Positions 12,465 to 46,768 of a stretch of DNA of 64,000 nucleotides are shown one piece after another. Location of the stretch: contig DAOTZU010000169.1 of the NCBI GenBank assembly GCA_034433995.1, positions 2,109 through 66,108 of the forward strand, in the 5' to 3' direction. The notes beneath the pieces are model-generated. The model saw only the letters and a program-made list of their open reading frames with translations, had not been told where the DNA came from and made no database searches. Each line of letters begins with the position of its first letter. Position 1 is the first letter of the stretch. Position numbers and translations under genes: made by a program. This stretch comes from Anaerolineae bacterium. GTDB lineage: Bacteria > Chloroflexota > Anaerolineae > UBA1429.

Positions 12465-12476
12465 AGAAACCTCCTG

Positions 12477-13667: not shown

Positions 13668-13683
13668 CTCTCCTCCTCAATGG

Positions 13684-21696: not shown

Positions 21697-21768
21697 ATCT
21701 GATGCGCACATCTTGAAATCCCTCACGGTGTTGCATATGATAGGGGCAACACTTGTGGGGGGAGCGCC

Positions 21769-27007: not shown

Positions 27008-27013
27008 GGTTGG

Positions 27014-28636: not shown

Positions 28637-29031
28637 CCGACGAACCTGCACGTCCTGCGTTGCTGTTGGTGGTGGATGACGAAGAGGGCATGCGCGATAC
28701 CCTGCTGGACATCTTGGAGGCGTATGACTTTGACGTCGACCAGGCCTGTAACGGCCAAGAGGCGGTGGACAAGGTGAAGCGGCGGCCCTATAACCTGGTG
28801 TTGATGGATGTCAAGATGCCGGTGATGGATGGCCTGATGGCGCTCCATCTCATCAGGACGATCCGCCCCAAGCTGCCGGTGATCCTGATGACCGCCTATG
28901 CCGACACCTTCTCGCTGGATCGGGCCAAGGTGGATGGAGCGACGGCGATCTTTGCCAAGCCCCTCAAGCTGGACGATCTGCTGCGCTTGATCCAAAGCCT
29001 TTTGCCCGTGCAGGGCAGGGGAGGCTGCTGA
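28633..29031 (+). CDS. single-domain response regulator (REC)
   Basis: LLVVDDEEGMRD...VLMDVKMP...ILMTAY; 4-nt overlap with upstream kinase. Confidence 0.8.
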   Translation: MTDEPARPALLLVVDDEEGMRDTLLDILEAYDFDVDQACNGQEAVDKVKRRPYNLVLMDVKMPVMDGLMALHLIRTIRPKLPVILMTAYADTFSLDRAKVDGATAIFAKPLKLDDLLRLIQSLLPVQGRGGC

Positions 29032-29858: not shown

Positions 29859-30989
29859 TCAGGCGGAGCGCAGGAGCTGGCGCACGTGTTCCGGATTATT
29901 GGCCTTGGCCAAGATGTCTTCCAGGGTGACCATGCCGCGACGGTAAAGCTCGATCAGCGCCTGATCTAGGGTCCTCATCCCCAGCCGCTGGCTGGTCTCG
30001 ATGACGCCGGGGAGTTGATGGGTCTTGGCCTCGCGGATGAGATTGCGCACCGCCGGCGAGGCGACCATCACCTCCACCGCTACCACGCGGCCCTTCCCAT
30101 CGGCGGTGGGCAGCAGCGTCTGAGAGAGCACTCCCTCCAGGATCATGGAGAGTTGGATGCGCACCTGTTGTTGCTGGTGCGGCGGAAAGACGTCGATGAT
30201 GCGGTCCACCGTGTTGGCGGCGCCGGCGGTGTGCAGGGTGGAGAGCACCAGGTGGCCCGTCTCGGCGGCGGTGATGGCCGCGGCGATGGTCTCCAGGTCC
30301 CGCATCTCGCCCACCAGGATCACGTCGGGGTCCTGGCGCAAGGCGTGTTTGAGGGCGGAGGCGAAGCTGGGCGTGTCCTCGCCCAGCTCCCGCTGGGTGA
30401 TCATGCTCTGCTTGTCGGTAAAGACGTACTCGATGGGATCTTCGCAGGTGACGATGCGGCAGCGTTGTCGCTCGTTAAGATAGTCAATCATCGCCGCCAG
30501 GGTGGTGGATTTGCCGCTGCCGGTGGGCCCGGTGACGAGGATCAAGCCACGGGGCCGCATGATCAATTCTTTGCACACCGGGGGCAGCAACAAGTCGTCC
30601 AACGTGGGGATGATCATGCTCAGGCGGCGCATGACCATGGTGATGGTGCCCCGTTGTTTGGCCACATTGATGCGAAAGCGGGCCACCCCTTCCAGCTCAT
30701 AGGAGAGATCCAGCTCCAATTCCTGCTCAAAGCGCCGGCGCTGCTCCGGATTGGTCACCTGCTCGTAGAGGCGGGCCAGGTCGGCGGCGCTCAGGGGCTC
30801 GTACTGCGCCTGCACCTGCAGGTCGCCCCGGATGCGCAACACCGGCGGGCTCCCGGCCTTCAGGTGCAGATCTGAGGCGCCCAGGCGCGTCGTCAAGTGC
30901 AAAAGCTCGTCAATGTACACCTCCGCGCTGGGCGTGGGCCGGGCGAAGGTTGTGCGCTGCGTAGGTTGGCGCATGATGGGATCGGACAT
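29859..30989 (-). CDS. pilT: type IV pilus retraction ATPase PilT
   Basis: Walker A GPTGSGKST, PilT-family motifs; start 30989 with GGGGAA upstream. Confidence 0.85.
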   Translation of the reverse strand: MSDPIMRQPTQRTTFARPTPSAEVYIDELLHLTTRLGASDLHLKAGSPPVLRIRGDLQVQAQYEPLSAADLARLYEQVTNPEQRRRFEQELELDLSYELEGVARFRINVAKQRGTITMVMRRLSMIIPTLDDLLLPPVCKELIMRPRGLILVTGPTGSGKSTTLAAMIDYLNERQRCRIVTCEDPIEYVFTDKQSMITQRELGEDTPSFASALKHALRQDPDVILVGEMRDLETIAAAITAAETGHLVLSTLHTAGAANTVDRIIDVFPPHQQQQVRIQLSMILEGVLSQTLLPTADGKGRVVAVEVMVASPAVRNLIREAKTHQLPGVIETSQRLGMRTLDQALIELYRRGMVTLEDILAKANNPEHVRQLLRSA

Positions 30990-31145
30990 GTCCAAATTCC
31001 CCAGATCAGGATGTTGTGCTATCCCCTCGCCTGTAATGGGCCCTGAGGCCAAACAGTCGTTCTCCCCCGCGGTGCGACCAAATCCATGGGCGCGGGACCC
31101 TGCCCGATATATTTGCTCTAGTGAGCCCCTTGTGGGCCGTGGCCT

Positions 31146-31976
31146 CTAACCGGCGAAATACCAGAGCAACAGCCGGCTGCCGTAGAGCATGTACAGGAAG
31201 GTGGTGAGCACCAAAAAGGGCGCAAAAGGGATGGCCGTTTTGCGCCCGGCCAGCCGGGTGATGAGCAGCACGACCCCCACAACCCCTCCCAAAATGAAGG
31301 AGCTGAACACCGCCACCAGCGCCCCCGGAAAGGCGGTGATGAGCCCGGCAAAGGCCGCCAGCTTGACATCGCCGGCCCCCATCCCCTGGGGGGCGATGAG
31401 CCAGATCAGCCAAAAGATGAGAAAGGCGGCCAAGCCTCCCAGCAGCTGGCTCAAGGCCGTCCATTGCGCGATGGACAAACTCGCCATGCCACGGTTGCGT
31501 TGGATCAGCCAAAAGAGGCCCAAGTGGGCGAAGGAAGGCTCCGCCACCAGGGCCTGGATGGGGATGGCCAAAAGGGCCAAGACGATGGCCGGCAAGATGA
31601 CCACGTTCAACACCAATTTGTGCTCCAAGTCGATGACCAGGATGACCAGGAGGAAGCAGGTGTACACCGTGCTCAGCGCCAGTTCCACACTGGGGCCGAA
31701 AAACCAGGCCAGGAAGGCGAAAAGGAGGCCGGTAACCAGTTCCACCAGCAGCACGCGCAAGGGAATGCGCGCCCCGCAGGTGCGGCAACGTCCCCGGAGG
31801 ACGAGATAGCTGACCACAGGCACCAGGTCCCCCGCGGTGAGCTGCCGACCGCACTGGGGACAATGGGAGGGCGGGCGCAGCAGCGATTGCTGGGCGGGCA
31901 GCCGATCCATGACGACGTTCAGGAAGCTGCCCACGATGAGCCCCACCAAGCCATAAAGGGCGCTGAACCACACCAT
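31146..31976 (-). CDS. pilD: prepilin peptidase (A24 family)
   Basis: N-terminal CPxCG Zn-finger-like (HCPQCGRQL...CRTCG), polytopic membrane domain. Confidence 0.85.
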   Translation of the reverse strand: MVWFSALYGLVGLIVGSFLNVVMDRLPAQQSLLRPPSHCPQCGRQLTAGDLVPVVSYLVLRGRCRTCGARIPLRVLLVELVTGLLFAFLAWFFGPSVELALSTVYTCFLLVILVIDLEHKLVLNVVILPAIVLALLAIPIQALVAEPSFAHLGLFWLIQRNRGMASLSIAQWTALSQLLGGLAAFLIFWLIWLIAPQGMGAGDVKLAAFAGLITAFPGALVAVFSSFILGGVVGVVLLITRLAGRKTAIPFAPFLVLTTFLYMLYGSRLLLWYFAG

Positions 31977-31977
31977 G

Positions 31978-32871
31978 CTACACCTTCTTCAGGGCCAGGC
32001 CGAAATTGGTCATGAACTCCATCTCGGGCAATTCCTCCGGGCAGGGAAATGGGGCGACGGCCCGTTCCACGGGGCGGTCAATGGTGGCTTTGAGATAGTC
32101 CCAGGCCTCGCGGGTATTCAGCGAGCGCCCCGCCAAATAGACGGACGTGCTGGGCTGCAACATAGCCTCGCGGTGGCTATCGTTGTAAAAGCGCACCGTC
32201 TGGGTCAGCTCCTCCAACAAGCGTTCGAGCTGGCCCAGGGCATCCAGGCCCTCCTTTTCAAAGGAGAAGGTGCGCATGATGGCCGGCAGATAATCTATGA
32301 CGATGACGATATCCAATAACCCATCCTCCAGGCAGACGATGATCGCCTCCGGTTGGCCTATGGCGCGGATGAGGGCCAACGGTTTGAGGTCCATCACAAA
32401 AGGCGGGATGCCCGCGGCCTGGAGCGCCCGCACCTGGGCCTCAATCATCTCCCTGGGCACCCCCACCACGTAAATGCGCTGTTGGTCGCCCACTCCGGGC
32501 ATGGATTGCCACGCGAGGTAGAGGCTCTCCAAGGAGACGGGCATCTCTTTGCGCGCCTCGCGGGAGATGGCCTCTTCCATCAACGAGGCCTGCAACTTGG
32601 GCAAGGTGAGCAGGCGCGGGATGGAGCGCATGGCGCTCAGGCTCGTGATCACCTGTTTGCGGGGCAGATTGTGGGCGGTAAAGAGGGCATCGAGGATCTT
32701 GCCCATCTCCACGGCGTTGGTGATCAACCCTTCCACCACCAGCCCCGGCGGCAGGTCCACGCTGAGCCAGCGGTCCACCTTGCCGTTGCGCAGGGTGAGC
32801 AGCCGCACATCGGTGGGTTCGATGGCCAGGGTGATCACATCACGGGTTTTGGGCTTGCTGAACAAGGCCAT
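31978..32871 (-). CDS. pilM: type IV pilus assembly protein PilM (actin-like ATPase fold)
   Basis: MALFSKPK...ITLAIEPTDVRLL N-terminus typical of PilM; GGAAGGA RBS. Confidence 0.8.
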   Translation of the reverse strand: MALFSKPKTRDVITLAIEPTDVRLLTLRNGKVDRWLSVDLPPGLVVEGLITNAVEMGKILDALFTAHNLPRKQVITSLSAMRSIPRLLTLPKLQASLMEEAISREARKEMPVSLESLYLAWQSMPGVGDQQRIYVVGVPREMIEAQVRALQAAGIPPFVMDLKPLALIRAIGQPEAIIVCLEDGLLDIVIVIDYLPAIMRTFSFEKEGLDALGQLERLLEELTQTVRFYNDSHREAMLQPSTSVYLAGRSLNTREAWDYLKATIDRPVERAVAPFPCPEELPEMEFMTNFGLALKKV

Positions 32872-32914
32872 GTGCGTTTCCTTCCCCAGGGCTAGGGGCA
32901 TCCCTGCGCCGATT

Positions 32915-34162
32915 TCAAGGGATGCGCAGCCTCATGCCCACGGTGATGCGCGAGCTGGTCAGACCGTTGGCCGCCATGAGGGCCGCCACGGTGGTGCCGA
33001 AGCGTTGGGCGATACTGAACAGGGTATCGCCGGCCTGCACGATATAGATCCTCCCGGGCAGGAGCGGCCCTCCGGGTAGGCCGCCCGGCCACAGCGGCGG
33101 GCTGCCCGCCCAGCCGGCCGGCGGGATGATCAAGCGCTGGTACACATAAAGGCTGTAGGTGGTCAAGCCGTTGGCCAACATGAGCAGGGCGACGGTGGTG
33201 TTGTAGCGTTGGGCGATGGTGTAAAGCGTCTCGCCGGGCATGACCACATGGATCAGGATGTCCGATTGCATGACGGTGGGGATGAACAGCGCCCGGTAAG
33301 CGCGGATGCTGGTGCCAGTCAACCCGTTGGCCGCCATGATGGCCCAGACTGTGGTATTGTACTGGCGGGCGATGGAGTAGAGGGTCTCGCCCGGCTGGAC
33401 GATGTGCACTAATGGCCCCGGTGCCGGGATGCCGCTGGCGGGGATCCAGATCACCGCGCCGGCGCGCAAGAAATAGGTCATCATCCCGTTGGCCTGCATG
33501 ATGGCTTGGACGGTGGTGTTGTAGCGCTTGGCCAGGCTATAGAGCGTATCGCCGGGTTGGACGGTGTAGGTGATGGGCTGGGAGAGGGTGCGTGGCGTGG
33601 GGGTGGGCGTGCTCGGTCCCGGTGTGATGGTGAGGGGGGGCGTGGAGGTGGCGGTGGGCGTGCCCGGCACCGGCGTGGTGCAATACCGCGCCACCAAATC
33701 AAGGCCCATGAGGGCCTCCTCGCCGGTGGGCCTGAGGGACCAAGCCTGGCGGAATTGCTCCAACGACTCGGTGCACTTGTTCTCCGTCAACAGCTTGTAG
33801 CCATAGTTGACATGGGCATAGTAGCGCTTGGCCTGGATGTCGTCATAGTTGGGGTCAATGGCGATGATCTGGCCGATGAGGTTCAACACTTGGGGCCAAT
33901 CCTGGGCGTTCCAGGCGGCGTCGAGCTGCTGCGCCAGGGCTTGCAGGCGCTGCTCGTTGGTGGGCGTGGCCGTGGCCACTTGCAAGGGGTGAAGGGGCAG
34001 TCCCTGGGGCTGCCCTCCCTCGGCTGCCGGCGGTTGGGCGCCGAGGCTCGCCCGCGCCGCCGGCGGCAGCCGGCCGGCCAACGTCCCTTGGGGCAAGAGG
34101 CCGCCGAGAAGGGCCAAGATCAGCAACGCCCTGCCCAAACGTGTCCATCGTCGCCTGCTCAT
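32915..34162 (-). CDS. secreted protein with TPR-like N-region and four LysM peptidoglycan-binding domains
   Basis: Signal peptide; four repeats of YTVQPGDTLYSIAxRYNTTV...ANGL. Confidence 0.75.
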   Translation of the reverse strand: MSRRRWTRLGRALLILALLGGLLPQGTLAGRLPPAARASLGAQPPAAEGGQPQGLPLHPLQVATATPTNEQRLQALAQQLDAAWNAQDWPQVLNLIGQIIAIDPNYDDIQAKRYYAHVNYGYKLLTENKCTESLEQFRQAWSLRPTGEEALMGLDLVARYCTTPVPGTPTATSTPPLTITPGPSTPTPTPRTLSQPITYTVQPGDTLYSLAKRYNTTVQAIMQANGMMTYFLRAGAVIWIPASGIPAPGPLVHIVQPGETLYSIARQYNTTVWAIMAANGLTGTSIRAYRALFIPTVMQSDILIHVVMPGETLYTIAQRYNTTVALLMLANGLTTYSLYVYQRLIIPPAGWAGSPPLWPGGLPGGPLLPGRIYIVQAGDTLFSIAQRFGTTVAALMAANGLTSSRITVGMRLRIP

Positions 34163-34174
34163 CTTTTCGCCCTC

Positions 34175-35317
34175 TTATCTTGGAATCACCAGCCGCTGAC
34201 CCACATATACGGTGGTGCTGCGCAGATCGTTGGCGCGCATGATGGCGCTGACCGTGGTATGGTAGCGGCTGGCGATGGACCACAAGGTATCTCCGGGCCG
34301 CACCACATGGATCAGCACCTCAGGCGTGGGGGTTTTGGTGGGCCCGGCGGTGGGGGAAGGTTTGGCCGTCTGCCCCGGCCGGGTGATGGTGGGCCGCGCC
34401 GCGGGGAGGGTCGGCGTCCCCTGAAGGCCGCGCAACAGCGTCAAGGCCTCCTGGCCGTTGGGCACCAAACGGAGGGCGGCCTCGAAGCGTTGTTGCGCCT
34501 CGGCGCGCCGGCCCTTGGCGGCCAGCTCGCGCCCCCAAGCGAGGTATACCTGATAGAGCTGATACGTCACCTCTTGGTGTTCCGGCTCCTCCTGCAAAAG
34601 GCGCTCCCCCTGGGCCGCCGCGGCCGGCCAATCCTGGGCCGCGATGGCGGCCTGGAAGGATTCCATCAGGCTACCTTGTTGTGCCGGCGTGGCGGTGGGG
34701 GCAGGACTGGGCGTCCCCTGGGCCGGCGCCGGTAGGGTGCCCCGCTCGATGGAATAGACCGCCAGGTCCACATTCCCCGTGAAGGGCCCATCGGGTTTGA
34801 CGATGAGGTTATCCAGCAAAAAGGTCTTGAACGGCCCATCGGCCAGGCGCGCCAAAAAGCGCAACAGCCCCGGCACCTCCCCCCGCGCCTCCACCAGAAA
34901 GCGCTGTACGTTATAGGCCTTCTCGGCCTCCTCCTCCGGCGTCTTGAGCAATGGCTCCAGCCGCGCCAGCCGCACGCCGAAGGTGCTGGCGTATTGGTAA
35001 TACTGGGCCATCTCATCGGCCACCTGTTGCCCGGTGGGCCAACCCGTGGTCAACTGCTGCAGTTGCTGTTGGGCCGCGCCCAGGCGCTGGCGCAGCGTCT
35101 CGGGGGCGGCGGCCTGGACGCGTTGAATCTGGGCGATGGCCTCTTGGGCGGTGTCGTACTCGCTCTGGGCCTCGCTCCGCCGCGAGATGGCACGCACCAG
35201 CGCGCTGAACACCACACCGGAGAGGACCAGTGCCACGATGAGGCTGAGGACGGCTCCCACCACCAGCGGGTTCTTGATCTTGAAGCGCCGAAAAAGATCC
35301 TTGACGTCGGTGTTCAT
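34175..35317 (-). CDS. PilO-like pilus assembly membrane protein with C-terminal TPR-like region and LysM domain
   Basis: Single TM (LVVGAVLSLIVALVL), coiled-coil, PilO-like core, C-terminal LysM (HVVRPGDTLWSIASRYHTTV); ATGA start/stop overlap with upstream giant gene. Confidence 0.5.
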   Translation of the reverse strand: MNTDVKDLFRRFKIKNPLVVGAVLSLIVALVLSGVVFSALVRAISRRSEAQSEYDTAQEAIAQIQRVQAAAPETLRQRLGAAQQQLQQLTTGWPTGQQVADEMAQYYQYASTFGVRLARLEPLLKTPEEEAEKAYNVQRFLVEARGEVPGLLRFLARLADGPFKTFLLDNLIVKPDGPFTGNVDLAVYSIERGTLPAPAQGTPSPAPTATPAQQGSLMESFQAAIAAQDWPAAAAQGERLLQEEPEHQEVTYQLYQVYLAWGRELAAKGRRAEAQQRFEAALRLVPNGQEALTLLRGLQGTPTLPAARPTITRPGQTAKPSPTAGPTKTPTPEVLIHVVRPGDTLWSIASRYHTTVSAIMRANDLRSTTVYVGQRLVIPR

Positions 35318-38300
35318 GGCGTCACCGTCTTGAGCCGCAGTTGCAGGGTGAATTGGATCAGTTGCGCGCCGGGGGCAGCGCCCAAGGGCGCCAATTGGGC
35401 CGCCGGCCGCTCCGGGGGCGCCGCCAGCCCCCACCAGCGCCGCGGGGCCGGCCAGGCTATCCCTTGCAGAAGGGGAGCGCCCTCTCTCCGCCAAGCGACC
35501 GCCTGGGGCTGCCCCAACGGGGCCCAGGCAGTCACTAGCCCCACCTCGTAGGCGCGCAGGTAATATTCCATGGTGGGGCCGAACAGTCCCTTGTTGTAGA
35601 TGGTGATGGTCACCTCGCCGTCGGCGGTCGCCTCAAAGATCACCGCCGAGTTCAGGTAACCCGTGCCGGGCAACGCATCGTCGCTTTGGCAGCCGCTGGG
35701 CTGGCAGTTGTGCACCGGCCCCGTCACCACCAACACGGTATCCACGCCGGGGGTCAGCGGATCGCAGACCAACTGGGTGGGCGAAAAGGGCGTGGTGACG
35801 GTGATGCTGGAACCGGGCTCCAGCCCGTTGCCGCAGGTGACCACCATGTAGCGCCGGCCGGCCTTGACCAAGAGGGTCACCTGGTCCACATCCAGCGCGG
35901 GGTGGAAGGTGTGGCGCTGGGATTCGTTGATGGAAAGATACCGTTTCACCGTGAGGTCCGGCTCGTAGGCGTCACCGCTTTCGGTGCCCAGATCGTCTAC
36001 CTGCAGGACATAGGTCTTGTCCGGCCCGTATTGTCCCTTGTTGGTGACCTGCACCGTCGCCTCAAGGTCGTCCGGGCCGTCGTTCTGCAGCTCCACGTAG
36101 GAGGAGAGATCGCCCGGTATCTTGTCGTCATTGCTGAGGTGGGTTGTGCCCATGTCCACCGTCAACATGGTATCCACGCCGGGGGCCAGATCTCGAGTGT
36201 AGATGCGATAGCGGCGTTCCGCCTTGGCGGTGAAGTAAACCCGATCCACGTCGCCGGGCGGATAAAAGCTCCGCGCCTGCCCCGCGCCGATGGCGATGGG
36301 CACCGGCGCAAGATCATCCACTTCGTAAGCATCGCCGGAGCCGACATCCGTCACCCGCAGGACGTAGGTGCGGTTGGGGCCAAAGAGGCCTTTGTTGGTC
36401 ACGGTGACAAAGGCGGGGGCGTCGGCGCCCGTTTGATTTTGAAACACAACCCTTGAGCTGAGATCCTGGGGCGAGCGATCGTCGCTGGTCCAGACCTGGC
36501 TGCCCAGGCGCACGGTGAGGACGCTATCGGCGCCCGTGGCCAGGGCGGTGGTCTCCACGGCGTAGGAATAGCCGGCTTTGGCGGTAAAGACCACCTGGTC
36601 CACATCGCCCGCGGGGCAGAAGGTGCGTGGCTGCTCCTCGTTCACCCCCATCACGCGGGCCACGGCATCGTCCGGTTCAAAGGCATCGCCGCAATCGAGG
36701 GTTGGAGTGGAGCTGGGGCCGGGCGTCGCCGTCGGTCCAGGGGTGAACAGCGGTGTGGGCGTAGCGGTGGTGCGGGTCAAATCGGGCGTAGGGGTGCGCA
36801 CCACACCCAAGAACTCGACCACCAGGGTGTAGGTCTTGTCCGGCCCATATTGGCCGTTGTTGGTCACCAAGACGGTGGCTTGGACGTCGCTAGCCCCGTC
36901 GTTCTGCAACTCCACATAAGATGAGAGATCGCCCGGCTGGCGGTCGTCGTTGCGGAGCTGGAGGGCGCCCATATTCACCGTGAGGACCGTATCCACGCCG
37001 GGGGCCAGGCCCTGGGTATAGATGCGGTAGCGGTGGTTGACCTTGGCCACAAAATAGACCCGATCCACATCGCCGGGCGGGTAAAAACTGCGCGCCTGGC
37101 CGATGCCAAAGGCGATGGGCACGGGGGAGAGGTCATCCACCTCGTAGGCATCGCCGGTGCCCGCGTCGGACACCTTGAACTTGTAGGTGCGATTTTGGCC
37201 AAAAAGGCCCTTGTTGGTGATGGTGATAAAGGCGGGAGCATCGCGGCCCGATTGGTTCTGGAAGATGATCTTGGAGCTGAGATCCTGGGGCGAGCGGTCG
37301 TCGCTGGTCCAGGATTGACCGCCCAAGAGCACGGTGACCACCGTATCCACACCGGGGGCCAGGTCATAGGTTTCCACGATGTAGGAATAGCCGGCCTTGG
37401 CGGTAAAGACGGCCTTGTCCACATCCCCGTTGGGACAAAAGTTGCGTCCCTGTTCCTGGTTCACCACCGCCAGGCGGCCCACGATATCATCCGGCTCGTA
37501 ACTATCGCCGCAAAAGACGGTGGGCGTGGGGCCGGGGGTAAGGGGCTGGCGGGTGAGATCGCGGGTGGGCGTGCCGGCCAGCTCGCGCAGCGTGAGCCAA
37601 TATTCCTTATCCACCCCATACTCGCCCCGGTTGGTGAGGGTGGCGATGGCCACACCGTCGCGGGAGGGGGTGAGGATCACCCGCGAGGCATAATCGCCGG
37701 GGGCGATGTCATCGTTCCGGAGGGTTTGCCCCTCCACCAGCACCTCCAACACCGTATCCACGCCCAAGGTGAGGCTGTACGTCTTGACCTCGTACACCCG
37801 CCCCGCCTTGACGGGGAAATAGACCCGGTCTACATCGCCCAAGGGGAAGAAGGTATGGCGCTGGCCCTCGTAAGGCGAGAGGGGCCGCGGGGTCTGGTCA
37901 TCCGGCTCGTAGGCATCACCCCCCGCCTCCAAGAGTTGCAGGGTGTAGGTTTTATCCACGCCATAGAGGCCCTTGTTGGTGATGGTGACCTGGGCCGTCC
38001 CATCGGCGTTGGCCTTGAAGAGGAGGCGCGAGGAGGGATCGCCGGAGGCGGCGTCATCGTTCTGCTGGGTGACGCCATCCACCTGCACCACGATGACCGT
38101 ATCCACCCCCAGGGCCAAGTTGGTGGTGCGCAATTCGTAGGCGTGCCCCGCCTTGACGGGGAAATAGACCCGGTCCACATCGCCGGCGGGGTAGAAAGAG
38201 CGGGCCTGGGCCTCGCCGATGGCGATGGGTTTGGGGGTTTGGTCGTCGCGCTCGTACGCGTCGCCGGTGGCCTCATAGACCGCCAGGGTGTACCACTTGT

Positions 38301-39294: not shown

Positions 39295-39385
39295 AGGTTC
39301 CTTTGCGCAGCAAGGGCCAGAGCCGAGACTCTGGCCCCATTGTAACATATCTTGCTGTAGCTGTCATCCGTGGCAATGGGGGCGT

Positions 39386-40543: not shown

Positions 40544-41742
40544 GATGAGCCCACCTGCCAGGAGAGCACCTGCCAATCGCCGTCGCCGCACCCTCGCATC
40601 CGCACTGTCGTGACCGTCGAGCCGGAGGTGGACCGGATGTCATAGACGCCACAGACGATGCTGCTGCCGCCGCTGCCCGGCAGTTCCACCTCGGCCAGGT
40701 TGATGGTGGCCCCCGAACCGTTGATATCGATCTCGTTGCCCAAGAAGGCGCCGGTGATCACCCCGCCGGAGCCGGTGAGAGAGATCTTGCCATTGGGGGC
40801 AAAGACCGTCCCGCCGGTGTTGCCCGAACCGCTGATGCTGACCACGTTGGTGCTGGCCGCGCGGGTGCTGAAAAAGCTCAGGCCGGGCACGTAGGGCGTG
40901 AAATCCAGCCCCGAGCCGCTGACATCGATGGTGGACAAGGAGACCACGGTCACATTGTATCCCCGCAGGCCCGAGCCGGAAAAGTTGACTTTGCCGGTGC
41001 AATAGTGCAGACCCTCCGGGATCACCGTGCCGGAGCCGGTGATGTTCCATGTGCCATTATGGACGTAATATTTCCCCTCGGCCTGGGCTCGGGCTGCCCA
41101 GCTGCCGGGTTGGTTGGGATCGTTGAACTCGTTGATATCCCAGGTGATGGGAAAAGGCTGGACGGTGGTCTGCACGGCCGGGCCCGGCACGATGCGGTTG
41201 CCCGAACCCAAAATGGTCAGGTTGCGCACATATTCCGCTGTGCCGTAGATGGTGTGGCCCGAACCGTTGATCTTGAGATCGCGGTTGCTGTGCACGCCGC
41301 CGTTGACGGTGTGCCCCGATCCGCCGATGACCAAGCCGTTGGTGGCGGTGCTGCTCTGGGCCCAGAGGGCCCATTCCAGGCATTCTGGCTCGCCGCCCCC
41401 GCCGCCAGCCTGGGTCTCGGTCTCGACGCACACCACCTCCACGGTGGGGGTATCTCCGTTGGGGGCGCTGGGCAGGGTCAAGGAGGCCACGGTGCCCGGC
41501 TGGTCCAGCAGAGTTTGCCGCCAAGCCGCGTCGTGGACCAGCTTCCAGAGGGCGAATTCCACGCCGGCATCGCTGGAATATTGCCGCTGCAGGGTGGTCT
41601 GGGTTGCCGCCGTCGTCTTCAGGCTGGTGCTCAGATGGGCCAGGAGCGGCCCGATCAAAATGATCCCCGTGGCTAAGGCGAGCAAGGCCAGGGGCAAGGA
41701 CTCGCCGCGTTCCTCTTGCCGGAATGTTGCTCTGTGCTTCAT
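40540..41742 (-). CDS. pilus-associated protein, PilX/TadG-like (paralog 1)
   Basis: Collinear similarity to 39386..40543 product (YSSDAGVEFALWKLVHDAAWRQ; GSG repeats); GAGGGAG RBS. Confidence 0.5.
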   Translation of the reverse strand: MKHRATFRQEERGESLPLALLALATGIILIGPLLAHLSTSLKTTAATQTTLQRQYSSDAGVEFALWKLVHDAAWRQTLLDQPGTVASLTLPSAPNGDTPTVEVVCVETETQAGGGGGEPECLEWALWAQSSTATNGLVIGGSGHTVNGGVHSNRDLKINGSGHTIYGTAEYVRNLTILGSGNRIVPGPAVQTTVQPFPITWDINEFNDPNQPGSWAARAQAEGKYYVHNGTWNITGSGTVIPEGLHYCTGKVNFSGSGLRGYNVTVVSLSTIDVSGSGLDFTPYVPGLSFFSTRAASTNVVSISGSGNTGGTVFAPNGKISLTGSGGVITGAFLGNEIDINGSGATINLAEVELPGSGGSSIVCGVYDIRSTSGSTVTTVRMRGCGDGDWQVLSWQVGSS

Positions 41743-41755
41743 GGGAAGATCTCCC

Positions 41756-42274
41756 TCACTGGGAAAGGCGCCGGGTGATGGTCAGCGTCATGCTGCGGCT
41801 GCCCCGGCGGGCCAGGGCGCTGGTCAAGGTGATGCGCACGGTGGTGCTGATCTGGGTCCCTTGCAGCGGCTCGATCTGCCAGGAGCTGATGTGCCGGGCC
41901 ACGGTGACCGAGCTGCTCCCGCCCGCGCCCGAGGTGGTGCGCACCAAATTGCCCCCCACCAGGCTGTAGGTGACGGTGGTGACCTGCGCCGATCCCGTTT
42001 GTCCAAAGGGGTAGGAGGGGATGTTCAGAGTCAATGTGGTGCCGTCAAAAGTGCCCTCCGAGGCGCCCACCACATCCCGGTTGAGGAGCACGCCGGCGGT
42101 CTGGAGCTGTTGGCTCAGCGTCAGCGAGTCCTGCTGCAGGCGGGTGAGGTTGTTAAATTGATACAGCATCACCACCAACGCCCCCAGGAGCAGCGCCGTG
42201 ATGGCGGTGGAGATCATGGTCTCCACCAGGGTGAATCCGTTTTGGCCCGTGCCGAGGAGCAAGCGCTTTTTCAT
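41756..42274 (-). CDS. prepilin-type N-terminal cleavage/methylation domain protein (minor pilin-like)
   Basis: GFTLVETMISTAITALLLGALVVML class-III signal peptide. Confidence 0.7.
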   Translation of the reverse strand: MKKRLLLGTGQNGFTLVETMISTAITALLLGALVVMLYQFNNLTRLQQDSLTLSQQLQTAGVLLNRDVVGASEGTFDGTTLTLNIPSYPFGQTGSAQVTTVTYSLVGGNLVRTTSGAGGSSSVTVARHISSWQIEPLQGTQISTTVRITLTSALARRGSRSMTLTITRRLSQ

Positions 42275-42675
42275 GGCCGATCCACCTTGTAATCCTCTAA
42301 GGCAAAGAGCAACTTGCCGTTTTCATAGACCTTGACCAGGATCTTTTGCATCCCGTTATCCGTGGCCGGCGGCGAACCGGAGAAGGTCTGGGTGGCCGAG
42401 AGCCAGTAGGTCACCTCCACCGAATGGGTGTAGAGGCTGGAGGGTTGGATGGTGGGGTACGGCTGGGCCGTCGGGTTGGCCCGATACTCGGCCTGTTTGA
42501 TCAGCTCCATCTGCTGCCGGGCATAGTTTTCGGCGCTGATGCGCTCTTCCACCAAAGCCACGCTCCCGCTGGAGGTGGAAAGCCCGCTGAGCATGATGAG
42601 GAGCGCCGCGCCGACGATGGCCAGCGTCACCAAGTCGCCCACCAGAGAACCGCCCCGTTGATCTTGTAACATCAT
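42271..42675 (-). CDS. pilin/pseudopilin-like protein with hydrophobic N-terminal helix
   Basis: ORF 42271..42795; start MMLQDQRGGSLVGDLVTLAIVGAALLIM at 42675 with AAGGTGG RBS. Confidence 0.6.
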   Translation of the reverse strand: MMLQDQRGGSLVGDLVTLAIVGAALLIMLSGLSTSSGSVALVEERISAENYARQQMELIKQAEYRANPTAQPYPTIQPSSLYTHSVEVTYWLSATQTFSGSPPATDNGMQKILVKVYENGKLLFALEDYKVDRP

Positions 42676-42802
42676 GGGAACCACCTTCTTGCTTATAAAA
42701 CCACCCGCAAAAACGCCGGTTTTTGTCGTCCAGCGCCCGCGAGGGGCTGGGCACCCGGCGGACCGCAAGACCTGTGCCCGCCGGATGCGCCCCAAAAGCG
42801 GG

Positions 42803-44005
42803 TTACTTGATCGAACCCATGAGCGAGTACATGGGCATGATCACCGCCACAGCCACAAAGCCCACCACCGCGCCGATAAAGAGGGTGAGGGCCGGCTCCA
42901 CCGCCCCGGCCATGGCCGCCACGGCCCGGTCCACCTCCTCTTCGTAAAAGATGGCCAGGGTCTCCATGTTGGAATCCAGGGCGCCGGTCTCTTCGCCCAC
43001 CCGCACCATCTGCACCAGCATCCCCGGAAAGATCTTTTGCTGGGCTAAAGGATCGGCCAGGCCGCGGCCCTGCAAAAGGTCGCGGCGCACGCCCTCCAAG
43101 GCGGCCCTGATGACCCGGTTGCTCTGGGTGCGGATGATCATCTCGATGATCTCCGGCAGGGCCAACCCCGCCCGCAGCAGGGCGGACATGGAGCGACACA
43201 TCCGCGCCACCGCCCCTTGGATCGTCACCCGTTTGATGAGGGGGATCTTGAGCAAGGCCCGGTCAAAGAACCAATGCCCTGCCTCCGAGCGGAAGAAAAG
43301 CACCCCCGCGCTGCCCACCAGCACCAGCGTGCCCAGGAGATGGAACTTGTAGGTGGAGGCGAAATCGGTGATGGCGATGAGGATGCGGGTGGGCAGGGGT
43401 AACTCCGCGCCGAAGGAGGTGAACAGGCCCATCAGGGGCGGCAGGGCCACGGTGAGCATCAAAAAGACCACGCCCACCGCCAACAAAAGCACAAAGGAGG
43501 GATAGGCCATGGCGCTGCGGATCTTGCGCACCAGGGCCTCTTCTTTCTCCATGTAAATGGCCAGTTGCCGCAGCACCATCTCCAAATTACCGGTGCGCTC
43601 GCCCACCTCGATCAACCGAGCATAGAGGTTGGAAAAGATCTTTTTGTGTTTCGAGATGGCCTCGGAGAGGAAACGGCCCTGCTGCAGGTCGAGGATGATC
43701 TCGCCCAACACCTGGCGCAGACGCTTGTTGCTGGTCTGTTCCTGCAACAGTTGGATGGCGCGAACGATGGGGATGCCCGATTCGATCAGTGTGGCCAATT
43801 GCCGGGAAAAGATGATCAGATCCCGGGTGCGCACCTTGGGGCTGAACAAGGAGACCCCGCCGTTTGTCTCCTGGGTCTCCTTGAGAGAGATGATGGTATA
43901 GTTCAGCTTCCACAGGAGCTCCTCGGCCACTTTCTCCGAGGCCGCCTCGATGCGGCCTTGGATCATTTCTCCTTTAGGCGTATACGCGATGTAATGGTAT
44001 GCCAT
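42803..44005 (-). CDS. pilC: type IV pilus inner-membrane platform protein PilC (GspF family)
   Basis: Two GspF-type repeats; start MAYHYIAYTPKGE at 44005. Confidence 0.85.
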   Translation of the reverse strand: MAYHYIAYTPKGEMIQGRIEAASEKVAEELLWKLNYTIISLKETQETNGGVSLFSPKVRTRDLIIFSRQLATLIESGIPIVRAIQLLQEQTSNKRLRQVLGEIILDLQQGRFLSEAISKHKKIFSNLYARLIEVGERTGNLEMVLRQLAIYMEKEEALVRKIRSAMAYPSFVLLLAVGVVFLMLTVALPPLMGLFTSFGAELPLPTRILIAITDFASTYKFHLLGTLVLVGSAGVLFFRSEAGHWFFDRALLKIPLIKRVTIQGAVARMCRSMSALLRAGLALPEIIEMIIRTQSNRVIRAALEGVRRDLLQGRGLADPLAQQKIFPGMLVQMVRVGEETGALDSNMETLAIFYEEEVDRAVAAMAGAVEPALTLFIGAVVGFVAVAVIMPMYSLMGSIK

Positions 44006-44019
44006 GGTCACCCACTCCC

Positions 44020-45930
44020 TCAACTCATGGTAAAGACGCCCCTCAAAATCTCTGAGGGCGTGGTGATGCCCATTTTGACCTTGACCATGCCGTCGTAGGG
44101 CATGCTCTTCATCCCCATGGCCTCGGCGGCGCGGCGCAGGTCGCCCGAGTTGGCCCCCTGCAACACCAGGCGGCGCAGCTCGTCGTTCATCATCAAGAGC
44201 TCAAAGACGCCCACCCGCCCGCGATAGCCCGTCTCGGCGCAATAGTTGCAGCCTGTGCCGTATTCAAAGTGGGTGCGGTGTTCGCCCAGTTGCTGCTCAT
44301 AGGCCGTGATCTCGGGCAGGGTCGCCTCTTTGACGGCGCGACACTGGTTGCACACCCGCCGCACCAGCCGCTGGGAGAGCACGGCCAAGAGCGACGAGGT
44401 GAGGAGGAACGGCTCCACCCCAAGGTCAATCAGGCGAAAGATGGCGCCCACGGTGTCGTTGGCGTGGATGGAGGAAAAGACCAGGTGGCCCGTCAGCGAG
44501 GCCTGCACCGCCGTCTTGGCCGTCTCTTGGTCGCGGATCTCGCCCACCAGGATGACGTCGGGGTCCAAGCGCATCGCCGCCCGCAGCCCGCTGGCGAAGG
44601 TGATCTCCGCCTGGCGGTTCACCTGCACCTGGTTGATCCCCTCAAAACGGTATTCCACCGGGTCCTCGATGGTGATGATCTTGAGCACCGTCTTATCCAG
44701 CTGGTTCAAGCTGGCATAGAGGGTGCTGGTCTTGCCGGAGCCGGTGGGACCGGCGATGAGCACGATGCCCCAGGGCGAATGAATCAGGCGGTTCCAGTTC
44801 TGCTCCATCTCGGGCAAAAAGCCCAGCTCGCTCAAGCCCCGCACCGAGATGGATTTATCCAGCACGCGCATGACCACCATCTCCCCCTTGACGGTGCTGA
44901 TGGTGGCCACGCGGATATCCACGGATTTTCCCTCCACCGTGATGGAGAATTGCCCATCTTGCGGGCGGCGCCGCTCGGCGATGTTGAGGTTGGCCAAAAC
45001 TTTGATCCGCGAGACGATGGGCGCGTGCACCCGCAACGGCAGCCGCATGGCATCGTGCAAGACGCCATCGATGCGGTAGCGGATCCGGAGATGGTCCTCC
45101 TGGGGCTCGATATGGATATCGGAGGCCTTGTCCTTCACCGCCTGGGTGATCATGAGCTCCACGGCCCGCACCACCGGCGCCTGCGAGACCAGTTCGGCGG
45201 TGAGGCGTTGGCTGGTTTTATCCTCCGTCTCGCTGGGGGGCGGCGCGATGCGCTCGATGTGGCGATCGATCTCGGTCGTCGCCTGATAATAGTTGGTAAA
45301 GGCGTTTTGGATATCGGCCGGCGAGGCGCGCAGTGTCTTGATCTTTAATCCCGTGCGGATGCGCAGGTCCTCAATGGCCAGCAGGTTGGTGGGGTCCGTC
45401 ATGGCCACCAACAATTGCCCTTGCTCCACCTTGAGCGGCAACAGGCTGTACTTGCGGGCCAGCTCCTCCGGCACCAGTTTCACCGCTTCGGGATCCACCT
45501 GGTAACGCTTCAGGTCAATGATGGGCAGGGAGACCAGGTCGCGGTGTTTGCGTTCGATCAGCTCGATGACGGCGTTGACGTCAAAGGGCTTGTACAAAAC
45601 GCCATCCACGCCGGCCCAGAGGGCCTCGGAGACGTACCCCTCCAATTGGCTGTGGCCGGTCATGATGATGGTGATCACATTGGGATTGATGGCCTTGATC
45701 TGGCGCAGCGTCTCCACGCCGTTCATCCCCGGCATCATGATGTCGATGAGGATGAGGTCGTAGGAGGCCTTTTTCATCAGCTCCAGGGCGGTCTTGCCGT
45801 CCTGGGCGCTGCCCACGCTAAAGCCCCGATCCTCCAGGATATCCACCAGGGTCTCGCACATCCCGGGGTCGTCATCCACGATGAGCACGCTCAATTGTTT
45901 TTGTTGGACGGCAACCGTTTCCTCGGTCAT
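44020..45930 (-). CDS. pilB: type IV pilus assembly ATPase PilB (GspE family) with N-terminal response-regulator receiver domain
   Basis: REC block LSVLIVDDDPGMCET...LILIDIMMPGMNG; GspE N-domain; Walker A GPTGSGKT; tetracysteine CNQC...CNYC; start could also be 45969. Confidence 0.85.
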   Translation of the reverse strand: MTEETVAVQQKQLSVLIVDDDPGMCETLVDILEDRGFSVGSAQDGKTALELMKKASYDLILIDIMMPGMNGVETLRQIKAINPNVITIIMTGHSQLEGYVSEALWAGVDGVLYKPFDVNAVIELIERKHRDLVSLPIIDLKRYQVDPEAVKLVPEELARKYSLLPLKVEQGQLLVAMTDPTNLLAIEDLRIRTGLKIKTLRASPADIQNAFTNYYQATTEIDRHIERIAPPPSETEDKTSQRLTAELVSQAPVVRAVELMITQAVKDKASDIHIEPQEDHLRIRYRIDGVLHDAMRLPLRVHAPIVSRIKVLANLNIAERRRPQDGQFSITVEGKSVDIRVATISTVKGEMVVMRVLDKSISVRGLSELGFLPEMEQNWNRLIHSPWGIVLIAGPTGSGKTSTLYASLNQLDKTVLKIITIEDPVEYRFEGINQVQVNRQAEITFASGLRAAMRLDPDVILVGEIRDQETAKTAVQASLTGHLVFSSIHANDTVGAIFRLIDLGVEPFLLTSSLLAVLSQRLVRRVCNQCRAVKEATLPEITAYEQQLGEHRTHFEYGTGCNYCAETGYRGRVGVFELLMMNDELRRLVLQGANSGDLRRAAEAMGMKSMPYDGMVKVKMGITTPSEILRGVFTMS

Positions 45931-46429
45931 GGTCTCATCTCGATGGACATTAAAGGCTATACCGGCCATGGGCCTTGCCGGCTAACGAAATCTAACAGTT
46001 TCTGCTCTTATCATACCGGATCGTGGGCGGCGGGGCATAAAAAGTACATTAATCCAGCGCTTTTGGCGCGGGGAGGGGGCTAAATTTGGCCTAAAGGAGA
46101 ACACACCCGCTTCGCCCTCGGCGCTCGGAGGTATCCCCAGAAAGATGCCGGGGCTGCGCCTGGCGGGTGGCGCGCCACCGCCGTGGCGCGCTCGCGGATT
46201 TACGCTTCATTTACCCCACTTTGACCCACGCTTTACGGATGCCTATAGGGGCTGTGCTATGATGTGGCCAGAATAAGCTCAGGATAGACGACGATAGCAT
46301 CGCAGCAGCAGTGAGGCCAGCAGGCAAGGAGGTAAGGAGGCAAGATCAGAAGACGAGGTCAGAGTTGCGGCACATGGCAATGCGTGTGGCATCGGGCATT
46401 ATTCTTAGCACTAAACGGAGGTAACGAAA

Positions 46430-46768
46430 ATGCGTAAGCAGCAAGGTTTCACCCTGATCGAACTGTTGATCGTCTTGGCCATCCTCGGCATCCTCATCGG
46501 CATCGTGGCCATGAGCGTGGGCGGCCTGAACCAGACGGCCAAGAGCCGGGGCATGAACTCGGAGAAAGAGATCGTCCAGACGGCCATCGACACCTACAAC
46601 ACCCAAGACGTGACGGTGGAGGGCTCGGCCACCATCCCCGCGCGGGCAACGGCGGCCACCATCGGCACGGCGGATACGGATGCTCCCTTCGCCAAGTATC
46701 TGAAGCGCGCCACCAAGTACAAGTACACCTGGGCCGCGGGTGGGGACACCTTGGTGGTCTCTGAATAA
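46430..46768 (+). CDS. pilA: type IV major pilin PilA
   Basis: MRKQQGFTLIELLIVLAILGILIGIV prepilin leader plus N-methyl-Phe motif; RBS GGAGG. Confidence 0.8.
   Translation: MRKQQGFTLIELLIVLAILGILIGIVAMSVGGLNQTAKSRGMNSEKEIVQTAIDTYNTQDVTVEGSATIPARATAATIGTADTDAPFAKYLKRATKYKYTWAAGGDTLVVSE

What the first reader, a model, noticed from the sequence alone, without database searches (positions are those of the whole stretch)
29859..46768. Complete monoderm-style type IV pilus locus lacking secretin/PilP and enriched in LysM domains
One minus-strand operon encodes REC-PilB, PilC, two pilin-like proteins, two paralogous GSG-repeat proteins, PilN-PPC, PilO-LysM, a 4xLysM protein, PilM, PilD and PilT; pilA is divergent upstream. 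Gene order (pilM downstream of pilN/pilO) and the absence of pilP, pilQ and tsaP differ from proteobacterial pilMNOPQ. Three products carry peptidoglycan-binding LysM domains. Together this indicates a cell-wall-anchored T4P of a monoderm lineage (Chloroflexota-like) with lineage-specific parts.
Basis: partly seen in the sequence, partly recalled or inferred. Interest (0 to 1): 0.6.

Follow-up and report, generated by a model that had tools for sequence, protein, structure and literature searches.

The report
Wall-anchored type IV pilus operon, Anaerolineae
This is a complete, secretin-less type IV pilus gene cluster from an uncultured Chloroflexota (Anaerolineae) bacterium whose PilN/PilO scaffold carries cell-wall-binding and long repeat modules. 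It suggests, but does not show, how a pilus machine is fixed in an envelope without an outer membrane.

Summary
Window 29859-46768 carries a tight minus-strand operon: REC-PilB, PilC, two small pilin-like proteins, two paralogous beta-solenoid proteins, PilN, PilO, a 4xLysM protein, PilM, PilD and PilT. A divergent pilA lies upstream. No secretin, PilP or TsaP-like gene was found in the 64 kb or beside eleven related loci.

- Two products carry LysM, not three (five domains in all).
- The PPC part of PilN is eight repeats inserted inside the PilN fold, not a C-terminal fusion.
- The "GSG" proteins are pilin-like beta-solenoid proteins whose best structural match is Thermus ComZ.
- PilO is below the Pfam threshold on its own and is supported only at family level.

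The same gene order recurs in Chloroflexota/Anaerolineae metagenome genomes. The PPC-bearing PilN and the multi-LysM protein are the constant parts there. A LysM on PilO is frequent (59 of 150 relatives) but not universal.

A PilO-LysM fusion in Chloroflexota was already reported in 2025-26, beside an archaellum. The wall-anchoring mechanism is inferred, not shown.

Verdict: a real, conserved, lineage-specific variant of the monoderm type IVa pilus. Interest is moderate.

The parts
44020..45969 (-). Extension ATPase PilB with an N-terminal receiver (REC) domain and a MshEN/GspE-N domain
   Evidence: T2SSE 4e-125, Response_reg 5.9e-31, MshEN 1e-21. It scores below the NCBIfam equivalog cut-offs for both PilB (543 against 676) and GspE (575 against 630). 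The REC-PilB architecture is kept in L004 and L013.
42803..44023 (-). Platform protein PilC
   Evidence: T2SSF 1.2e-57, two stretches. 63-77% identical in related loci.
42271..42675 (-). Small minor-pilin-like protein (mp1). The likely start is M41/M42; the ORF runs up to 42795.
   Evidence: No significant family hit; only a weak XpsI/GspI match at 0.008. It has an N-terminal hydrophobic segment after GG|SLVGD. It is conserved in synteny at 45-54% identity from residue 42 onward.
41756..42274 (-). Minor pilin (mp2) with a canonical G|FTLVE prepilin motif
   Evidence: N_methyl 1.3e-6; TIGR02532 domain hit plus weak GspH/ComGF hits.
40540..41742 (-). GSG1: pilin-like N-terminal helix plus beta-solenoid (ComZ-like, DUF7305)
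   Evidence: AlphaFold model has pLDDT 88, helix 15-70, then beta-rich. The top Foldseek PDB hit is Thermus ComZ 6QVI, E 2.4e-4, probability 1.0, TM 0.29. Homologs include TadG-like proteins with DUF7305.
39386..40543 (-). GSG2: paralog of GSG1. Its start ATG at 40543 overlaps the GSG1 stop (ATGA).
   Evidence: 38% identity to GSG1, 3e-81. DUF7305 28.5 bits against a cut-off of 27.
35314..39294 (-). PilN with a split ferredoxin-like domain. It has an N-terminal IDLNILP motif, a transmembrane helix, a coiled coil, a first half of the fold, the repeat array, and a last strand at the extreme C-terminus.
   Evidence: PilN PF05137 24.9 bits, covering profile positions 13-60 of 78 only. Joining the last 22 residues to the N-part raises the score to 35.3 bits and extends the match to profile 13-77. 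The N-terminal motif and a C-terminal VxFxLxLxLK strand are conserved in most of the 58 homologs inspected. The model of homolog P0124 gives alpha-beta-beta-alpha-beta, six beta-sandwich domains, then a confident terminal strand.
35572..38670 (-). Array of eight PPC / collagen-binding-domain-like beta-sandwich repeats (PilN residues about 227-1259)
   Evidence: Repeat alignment. PPC PF04151 28.9 bits against 25.9. Foldseek hit to the ColG tandem collagen-binding domains 5IKU, 2e-8. Acidic DxYExDD / GDVD / NDD positions are invariant in 24 homologs.
34175..35317 (-). PilO-like protein: transmembrane helix, coiled coil and PilO core, then a two-repeat TPR module, a Pro/Thr linker and one LysM (34181-34312)
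   Evidence: LysM 68 bits. TPR 2e-17 against consensus TPR structures. PilO support is at family level. The ATGA overlap with the pilN stop is read.
32915..34162 (-). Exported or anchored TPR plus 4xLysM protein. LysM domains lie at 33440-33568, 33278-33409, 33122-33253 and 32918-33049.
   Evidence: LysM 1.3e-64, four stretches. Its TPR-linker-LysM part is paralogous to the PilO C-terminus (31% identity, 1e-20). A multi-LysM gene sits between pilO and pilM in every related locus examined.
31978..32871 (-). PilM, a cytoplasmic actin-like protein
   Evidence: PilM_2 1.2e-11. PDB 2YCH 6.3e-12. 47-65% identical in relatives.
31146..31976 (-). Prepilin peptidase / N-methyltransferase PilD
   Evidence: A24_N_bact 2.9e-34, Peptidase_A24 3.2e-12.
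29859..30989 (-). Retraction ATPase PilT
   Evidence: TIGR01420 480.5 bits against a cut-off of 319.1. An AVRNLIRE motif is visible in the translation. The gene is called as 376 aa on the identical contig L001.
46430..46768 (+). Major pilin PilA, with leader MRKQQG|FTLIELL
   Evidence: N_methyl 8.6e-12. 56-72% identical to the pilin that follows pilT in related loci.
27014..29717 (+). Two-component trio convergent on pilT: REC-GAF-histidine kinase, single REC, and a short histidine kinase. Probable regulators of REC-PilB.
   Evidence: Pfam. The same trio lies directly upstream of REC-PilB in L013, at 62, 46 and 38% identity.

Best explanation
The locus encodes a retractile type IVa pilus machine of an Anaerolineae (Chloroflexota) bacterium, built for an envelope without an outer membrane.

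Shown by domain and family evidence:
- PilB (extension) and PilT (retraction) ATPases, the PilC platform, the PilD peptidase and a PilA major pilin.
- A set of minor pilins: two small ones plus two ComZ-like beta-solenoid proteins.
- PilM, PilN and PilO.

Inferred mechanism:
- PilM docks on the conserved IDLNILP peptide at the cytoplasmic N-terminus of PilN.
- PilN and PilO form the ring around PilC, as in other type IVa systems.
- Where diderms have PilP, a secretin and TsaP, the outer face of this ring is tied to the wall. The ties are one LysM on PilO and four LysM on a dedicated TPR-LysM partner protein.
- An array of eight calcium-site-bearing PPC beta-sandwich domains is looped out of the PilN fold. 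It would form a stiff extension, cage or sleeve that reaches through the peptidoglycan and any further envelope layers.
- The beta-solenoid minor pilins sit at the pilus tip as an adhesin or DNA receptor.
- Extension is gated by phosphorylation of the receiver domain on PilB, through the neighbouring two-component genes.
For: - Complete type IVa gene set with significant family matches.
- Tight operon with ATGA start/stop overlaps.
- No secretin or PilP in 64 kb, nor in the flanks of related loci.
- The same gene order in L004 and L006-L014, all of Chloroflexota/Anaerolineae origin where named.
- About 55 clusters (at 90% identity) of PilN-with-PPC-array proteins; every one that carries an organism name is from Chloroflexota/Anaerolineae.
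- Split PilN fold: the Pfam score rises from 27.9 to 35.3 bits and profile coverage extends from 13-60 to 13-77 of 78 when the C-terminal strand is joined. The model topology agrees, and both termini are conserved.
- The PPC repeats match the ColG collagen-binding domains and have invariant acidic positions.
- LysM domains are far above threshold.
- 59 of 150 PilO-core relatives carry LysM and 36 carry TPR.
- The GSG1 model matches ComZ.
- A two-component trio is linked to REC-PilB in two arrangements.
- Published speculation that enlarged PilO in monoderms anchors the machine to, or guides it across, peptidoglycan (PMC6916266). A published note records PilO-LysM in Litorilinea (PMC12488501, PMC13319060).
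Against: - Nothing here shows expression, piliation or peptidoglycan binding.
- The LysM on PilO is absent in several related loci (L007, L010, L012, L013), so it is not essential to the design.
- The arrangement of the PPC array is unknown. The model has pTM 0.27, and I could not inspect contacts to prove that the terminal strand docks in the PilN sheet.
- The ComZ match has a low TM-score (0.29).
- PilB is not resolved from GspE by the NCBIfam equivalogs.
- The rest of the genome could not be searched for a secretin.
Confidence: 0.72

Rival explanations
1. The machine is mainly a competence (DNA-uptake) pilus, not an adhesion or motility pilus. The two ComZ-like beta-solenoid proteins would be tip DNA receptors, as proposed for Thermus thermophilus.
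For: The best structural match of GSG1 is ComZ 6QVI. ComZ is described as a competence-associated pilin and a proposed tip DNA receptor (PMC6561018). PilM's best solved relative is the Thermus competence protein PilM.
Against: The fold match is weak in TM-score. Beta-solenoids are common adhesin folds; tapirin and ice-binding proteins are also in the hit list. No ComEA, ComEC or DprA gene is in the window. This role would not exclude motility or adhesion, and it does not change the anatomy.
Confidence: 0.2
2. The LysM protein and the PPC array are not parts of the pilus machine. They would be cell-wall or surface proteins that happen to be co-transcribed or fused.
For: LysM and PPC are promiscuous domains found in many unrelated wall enzymes and proteases; most hits are such proteins. 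No interaction data exist.
Against: The multi-LysM gene keeps its place between pilO and pilM in every related locus examined, down to 27-28% PilO identity. The PPC array is inserted inside the PilN fold itself in most of the 58 homologs inspected. The LysM protein shares a paralogous TPR-LysM module with PilO.
Confidence: 0.08
3. The organism has an outer membrane or an equivalent pore, and the secretin/PilP genes are simply encoded elsewhere, as happens in some diderms.
For: Only 64 kb of the genome and flanks of up to 10 kb beside the relatives were seen. Chloroflexota can have multilayered envelopes (PMC13319060).
Against: No secretin lies near any of the loci. Chloroflexota are described as monoderm in the literature read here (PMC12488501, PMC6916266). 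PilP, which normally follows pilO, is replaced by the LysM gene.
Confidence: 0.06

Closest known systems
Type IVa pili of monoderm Firmicutes (Streptococcus sanguinis, Clostridium), as reviewed in PMC6916266
   Same: Clustered pilB, pilC, pilD, pilM, pilN, pilO, pilT and pilins. No secretin and no PilP. PilO is enlarged beyond the PilO core, and the review speculates that this serves wall anchoring or crossing.
   Different: Here PilN, not only PilO, is hugely enlarged, by a six- to eight-domain PPC array inserted in its fold. PilO carries identifiable TPR and LysM domains. A separate 4xLysM protein is part of the operon. pilM follows pilN/pilO. PilB carries a receiver domain.
PilN / PilO-LysM pair beside the archaellum cluster of Litorilinea aerophila (PMC12488501; PMC13319060)
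   Same: Same phylum. PilO homolog with a C-terminal LysM next to a PilN homolog. The authors propose peptidoglycan anchoring and contrast it with TsaP.
   Different: There pilM, pilP and pilQ are absent, and the pair is proposed to serve an archaellum. Here the pair sits in a full type IVa pilus operon with PilM, PilB, PilC, PilD and PilT, which looks like its native context. The PPC-split PilN and the 4xLysM partner are not mentioned in the passages of those papers that I searched.
TsaP and FimV, the LysM-containing peptidoglycan-binding accessory proteins of diderm type IVa pili
   Same: A LysM domain is used to tie a type IV pilus machine to peptidoglycan.
   Different: TsaP and FimV act with the outer-membrane secretin. 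No homology was found outside the LysM domain. Here LysM is on PilO and on a TPR-LysM protein, with no secretin.
ComZ of Thermus thermophilus (PDB 6QVI; PMC6561018)
   Same: Pilin-like N-terminal helix followed by a beta-solenoid. Encoded among minor pilins. Best structural match of GSG1 (E 2.4e-4).
   Different: About 11% sequence identity and TM 0.29. The window has two tandem paralogs of about 400 aa. The solenoid domain (DUF7305) also occurs on TadG-like proteins. DNA binding is untested.
Collagen-binding / PPC domains of clostridial collagenase ColG (PDB 5IKU)
   Same: Beta-sandwich fold, tandem arrangement and conserved acidic positions of the kind that bind calcium in ColG.
   Different: Here the domains are not on a protease. 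They form a six- to eight-copy insertion in a pilus assembly protein. Any ligand is unknown.

Membership tests
Type IVa pilus machinery | PilB/GspE-family extension ATPase | tested here: met
   T2SSE 4e-125. It is below the equivalog cut-offs of both PilB and GspE, so it is assigned to the superfamily plus context.
Type IVa pilus machinery | PilT retraction ATPase | tested here: met
   TIGR01420 480.5 bits against a cut-off of 319.1.
Type IVa pilus machinery | PilC platform and PilD prepilin peptidase | tested here: met
   T2SSF twice at 1.2e-57; A24_N_bact 2.9e-34 plus Peptidase_A24 3.2e-12.
Type IVa pilus machinery | Major pilin with a class III signal peptide (G|F..xE) | tested here: met
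   N_methyl 44.5 bits against 21.2. MRKQQG|FTLIELL is read.
Type IVa pilus machinery | PilM and PilN | tested here: met
   PilM_2 44.6 against 27, and 2YCH 6e-12. PilN 24.9 against 22.8, rising to 35.3 bits once the split fold is rejoined.
Type IVa pilus machinery | PilO | tested here: inconclusive
   The window protein scores 16.3 bits against a cut-off of 22. Among its 150 closest cluster representatives, 26 hit PF04350 (best 2.8e-10) and 8 hit T2SSM/T2SSM_b. Position and topology fit PilO.
Diderm-type T4aP (pilMNOPQ) | Secretin PilQ and lipoprotein PilP next to pilMNO | tested here: not met
   No Secretin or PilP hit in the window or in the flanks of related loci. The rest of the genome was not testable.
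Monoderm-type T4aP | Full assembly set without secretin/PilP, in a lineage lacking an outer membrane | tested here: inconclusive
   The gene set fits (above). The lineage is Chloroflexota/Anaerolineae by the record titles of relatives. The monoderm state is taken from the literature and was not tested on this genome.
LysM (PF01476) peptidoglycan-binding domain | Score above the gathering threshold | tested here: met
   214 bits (four copies) and 68 bits (one copy) against a cut-off of 20.9. Five copies in all. Binding itself was not tested.
TsaP | LysM plus FlgT-like domains, associated with a secretin | tested here: not met
   Only LysM and TPR were found in the two LysM proteins, and there is no secretin.
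PPC / collagen-binding-domain fold | PF04151 match and beta-sandwich fold | tested here: met
   28.9 bits against 25.9. Foldseek hit to 5IKU at 2e-8 on the model of homolog P0124.
ComZ-like beta-solenoid pilins | Pilin N-terminal helix plus a beta-solenoid inserted in or appended to the pilin fold; DNA binding | tested here: inconclusive
   The fold search puts ComZ first (E 2.4e-4, probability 1.0) but with TM 0.29. There is no E5 residue after the putative cleavage site. DNA binding is not testable here.

The most novel reading that the evidence does not exclude
In Anaerolineae, the secretin/PilP/TsaP outer half of the type IV pilus machine is replaced by a different architecture that crosses the wall. 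A ring of PilN subunits each loops out six to eight calcium-stiffened PPC domains. The ring is stapled to peptidoglycan by PilO-LysM and a dedicated TPR-4xLysM protein. It would form a conduit through peptidoglycan and the further envelope layers. The PilN / PilO-LysM pair that Litorilinea uses beside its archaellum would then be a remnant of this pilus module, taken over for the archaellum.
Probability: 0.3. Interest if true: 0.75.

Novelty: new variant of a known kind. Interest (0 to 1): 0.5.

Why it matters
How type IV pili are anchored in, and pass through, a thick wall without a secretin is an acknowledged open question for monoderm bacteria (PMC6916266). This operon family gives concrete candidate parts that can be tested:
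- a PilO with a recognisable peptidoglycan-binding domain;
- a conserved multi-LysM partner protein;
- a PilN whose fold is split by a long array of beta-sandwich domains.

It also supplies the likely native pilus context for the PilN / PilO-LysM pair recently proposed to anchor a horizontally acquired archaellum in Chloroflexota. The practical limit is that all members found here are from uncultured genomes.

Tried and rejected
- The exact-sequence look-up of the PilM ORF found nothing, because the ORF start was too long. The look-up of PilO (P0001) worked.
- The first genome scan, with a PilO alignment, failed twice: no conserved stretch, then 107 pattern matches but no relative. The PilM alignment gave six loci.
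- Rfam found no RNA family in the window.
- The promoter and terminator scan of the operon was no better than chance.
- Sequence searches of PDB with GSG1 and with PilN gave nothing significant. Only the fold search placed GSG1 near ComZ.
- I considered a c-di-GMP link, from the MshEN domain on PilB and the neighbouring REC-GAF-HD-GYP gene. By eye, from memory of the motif, I saw no RLGxxL-type motif in PilB. In L013 the HD-GYP query matched only through its receiver domain. I dropped the idea as unsupported.
- I considered the GT-C glycosyltransferase next to pilA as a pilin glycosylase. It has no counterpart in the related pil loci, so the link is only positional.
- The 1160-aa ORF at 19354-22836 was checked as a possible large envelope protein. 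It is a shadow of plus-strand genes.
- I could not obtain model coordinates, so docking of the PilN terminal strand is inferred from topology, pLDDT and the profile test only.
Full report
**What is there**

The window is about 64% G+C. Between 29859 and 45969 the minus strand carries twelve consecutive ORFs with the high third-position G+C typical of genes in this window. A small plus-strand gene lies at 46430-46768.

Pfam and NCBIfam identify the products as follows:
- An extension ATPase with an N-terminal receiver domain (REC-MshEN-T2SSE).
- The platform protein PilC.
- A canonical minor pilin.
- PilN (24.9 bits against a threshold of 22.8) that also matches PPC.
- A protein ending in one LysM.
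- A protein with four LysM.
- PilM (44.6 against 27). Its best solved relative is Thermus PilM 2YCH, 6e-12.
- The prepilin peptidase PilD.
- PilT (TIGR01420, 480 bits against 319).
- The pilin PilA, with the leader MRKQQG|FTLIELL.

Several junctions are ATGA start/stop overlaps: pilN/pilO at 35314-35317 and GSG1/GSG2 at 40540-40543. This fits a single transcription unit. The consensus promoter and terminator scan adds nothing beyond chance.

- A tblastn with the window's own LysM domains finds five copies, in two proteins only. The claim of three LysM-bearing products is wrong.
- The ORF at 42271-42795 has no significant family match. It is a minor pilin only by its N-terminal segment and by conserved position.
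- The PilO assignment is below the Pfam threshold for this protein (16.3 bits against 22). An exhaustive phmmer search with its first 200 residues finds 177 cluster representatives. Of the best 150, 26 match Pfam PilO (best 2.8e-10) and 8 match the related T2SS protein M families. The assignment therefore holds at family level.
- The 1160-aa ORF at 19354-22836 is a shadow of plus-strand genes.
- No likely gene in the 64 kb matches Secretin, PilP or a TsaP-like architecture.

**PilN is split, not extended**

The 1344-aa ORF most likely starts at M19, because homologs align from there. That gives the N-terminus MPPKPPAPGPIDLNILPPQYRPR. The IDLNILP motif is conserved in most of the 58 homologs inspected. 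It resembles the INLLP peptide through which PilN binds PilM in other systems; this last point is my background knowledge.

The Pfam PilN match covers only profile positions 13-60 of 78. Eight repeats of about 115-155 residues follow, at residues 227-1259. After them comes a low-complexity stretch, and the protein ends in LIQFTLQLRLKTVTP. A strand of this kind, (V/I)xFxLxLxLK, closes most of the homologs whatever their length, from 770 to 1580 aa.

Joining the last 22 residues directly to the N-terminal part raises the Pfam PilN score. For the window protein it goes from 27.9 to 35.3 bits, and for homolog P0124 from 31.9 to 37.3 bits. In both, the match extends to profile position 75-77.

The AlphaFold model of P0124 (1064 aa, 54% identical, 24-sequence alignment) shows a long membrane helix and a coiled coil, then helix-strand-strand-helix-strand. 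A disordered linker, six beta-sandwich domains and a second disordered stretch follow. The chain ends in one confident terminal strand with pLDDT about 76-87. This is the alpha-beta-beta-alpha-beta-beta order of a PilN ferredoxin-like domain, with the array inserted before the last strand. I could not inspect contacts, so docking of that strand is inferred.

The repeats match the calcium-bound tandem collagen-binding domains of ColG (5IKU, 2e-8). They keep invariant acidic positions (DxYExDD, GDVD, NDD) across 24 homologs. This suggests calcium sites, but that is inference. Repeats 4-5 and 6-7 look like a recent duplication, and most relatives have six repeats.

**The LysM proteins**

The PilO-like protein has a membrane helix, a coiled coil and the PilO core in its first 200 or so residues. 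A two-repeat TPR module follows (2e-17 against consensus TPR structures), then a Pro/Thr-rich linker and one LysM.

The next gene encodes a protein with an N-terminal hydrophobic signal or anchor, the same kind of TPR module, and four LysM. The TPR-linker-LysM parts of the two proteins are paralogous (31% identity over 183 residues, 1e-20).

**The GSG proteins**

The two roughly 400-aa proteins are 38% identical. They begin with a PilX/GspK-like hydrophobic segment that lacks a glutamate at position 5.

A 30-sequence alignment gave a confident model (pLDDT 88), with a 55-residue N-terminal helix followed by a beta-solenoid. Foldseek against PDB ranks the three chains of Thermus thermophilus ComZ first (6QVI, E 2.4e-4, probability up to 1.0, TM 0.29). 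Ice-binding beta-helices and tapirin follow. ComZ is a competence-associated pilin proposed to be a tip DNA receptor (PMC6561018).

More distant homologs combine the same solenoid (DUF7305) with a TadE/G-like N-terminus. The module therefore appears to be associated with pili in general. I read these proteins as tip-located minor pilins with an adhesin or receptor role. Which ligand they bind is open.

**Relatives**

Full-length relatives of the PilO-LysM protein are few in the word-indexed search. The identical protein lies on short metagenome contigs with the same neighbours.

A 44%-identical homolog lies on a 51-kb contig (L004). Its gene order is REC-PilB, PilC, two small proteins, two roughly 400-aa proteins, a PilN of 1094 aa, PilO-LysM, the 4xLysM protein, PilM, PilD, PilT and PilA.

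A genome scan with a PilM alignment returned six loci. All are titled Chloroflexota, Anaerolineae or Anaerolineales metagenome genomes. tblastn shows the same order in them. More distant loci keep a core: L012 on a 3.2-Mb contig, and L013/L014. The core is PPC-bearing PilN, a short PilO without LysM, a multi-LysM protein, PilM, PilD, PilT and PilA.

The constant features are therefore the split PilN and the multi-LysM protein between pilO and pilM. A LysM on PilO itself is common (59 of 150 PilO-core cluster representatives) but optional.

The PilN-with-array family has about 55 clusters at 90% identity. Every cluster that carries an organism name is from Chloroflexota/Anaerolineae.

No secretin was seen in the annotated flanks of L004 and L012-L014, nor among the large flank ORFs of L006, L007, L010 and L011.

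In the relatives, pilA follows pilT. In the window it lies upstream and divergent, so this genome has rearranged that end of the cluster.

**Regulation**

The receiver domain on PilB has the usual acidic pocket, the phospho-acceptor Asp, and the Thr and Lys positions (read). It is kept in L004 and L013.

Convergent on pilT lie four genes: REC-GAF-HD-GYP, REC-GAF-histidine kinase, a single REC, and a short histidine kinase. The last three recur directly upstream of REC-PilB in L013, at 62, 46 and 38% identity. A dedicated phosphorelay that gates pilus extension is the simplest reading. This is inference.

**Comparison with what is known**

Type IVa pili without secretin or PilP are the established pattern in monoderms. 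That review (Pelicic, 2019; PMC6916266) notes that monoderm PilO is much larger than PilN and speculates about wall anchoring or crossing.

Two recent papers on Litorilinea aerophila report a PilN homolog and a PilO homolog with a C-terminal LysM beside a horizontally acquired archaellum cluster. They contrast this with TsaP, note that pilM, pilP and pilQ are absent there, and find the fusion near archaellum genes in only 3 of 244 genomes (PMC12488501, PMC13319060).

The PilO-LysM idea is therefore already published. As far as my searches went, the following are not described:
- the full pilus operon around such a pair;
- the PPC array inserted in PilN;
- the conserved TPR-multi-LysM partner protein;
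- the ComZ-like pair;
- the REC-PilB with its linked two-component genes.

**Verdict**

It is a lineage-specific variant of a known kind of machine, not a new kind.

- Identity of the machine: high confidence.
- Wall anchoring by LysM: a reasonable inference.
- A conduit role for the PPC array: a hypothesis, at about 0.3.

Interest is moderate. The locus bears on an open question about monoderm pili and on the recent archaellum co-option story. However, it rests entirely on sequence from uncultured organisms.

Noticed in passing
window 51791-54061 (-): One 756-aa product joins a CofD/YvcK-like domain (PF01933, residues 52-224) to a complete four-domain phosphohexomutase (PGM_PMM I-IV). This may be a fusion linking a YvcK/GlmR-type regulator with a GlmM-type mutase of cell-wall precursor synthesis.
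   Followed up: no
window 50032-51657 (-): An N6/N4 DNA methylase is fused to an Mrr-type / inactive-restriction-endonuclease-like domain. It lies in a patch of lower G+C (0.59, third-position G+C 0.71) and may be a horizontally acquired restriction or defence gene.
   Followed up: no
window 46831-48891 (-): A GT-C glycosyltransferase (TMEM260-like / PMT_2) is convergent with pilA. Its position recalls pilin glycosylases, but no homolog is present in the related pilus loci.
   Followed up: partly
window 25493-29717 (+): A block of four signalling genes: REC-GAF-HD-GYP, REC-GAF-HisKA-HATPase, REC, and HisKA-HATPase. The last three are also linked to REC-PilB in L013. The HD-GYP gene's link to the pilus is untested.
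   Followed up: partly
window 19354-22836 (-): This 1160-aa ORF has no family hit and an odd codon-position G+C. It is a shadow ORF over two plus-strand genes: a hybrid histidine kinase (19132-21696) and a 376-aa protein (21769-22899).
   Followed up: yes
window 1779-4301 (+): A single 840-aa ORF combines a PadR-type HTH domain with a GH57 glycoside hydrolase and a branching-enzyme C-terminal domain. It may be a real fusion or an over-extended start.
   Followed up: no
window 39339-39367 (-): A sigma-70-like site with 10 of 12 matches and an extended TG lies just upstream of the likely pilN start. The number of such sites in the region equals the chance expectation.
   Followed up: no
L004 6231-6512; L004, L007, L011, L012 downstream of pilA: In L004 a SpoVS-family gene is inserted between the second GSG gene and pilN. 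A serine hydroxymethyltransferase gene follows pilA in four related loci but not in the window, which shows that the window's pilA end has been rearranged.
   Followed up: no
window 9325-15550 (-): An arginine biosynthesis cluster: argininosuccinate lyase, argininosuccinate synthase, a GNAT acetyltransferase, a class-III aminotransferase, an amino-acid kinase, and a semialdehyde dehydrogenase.
   Followed up: no
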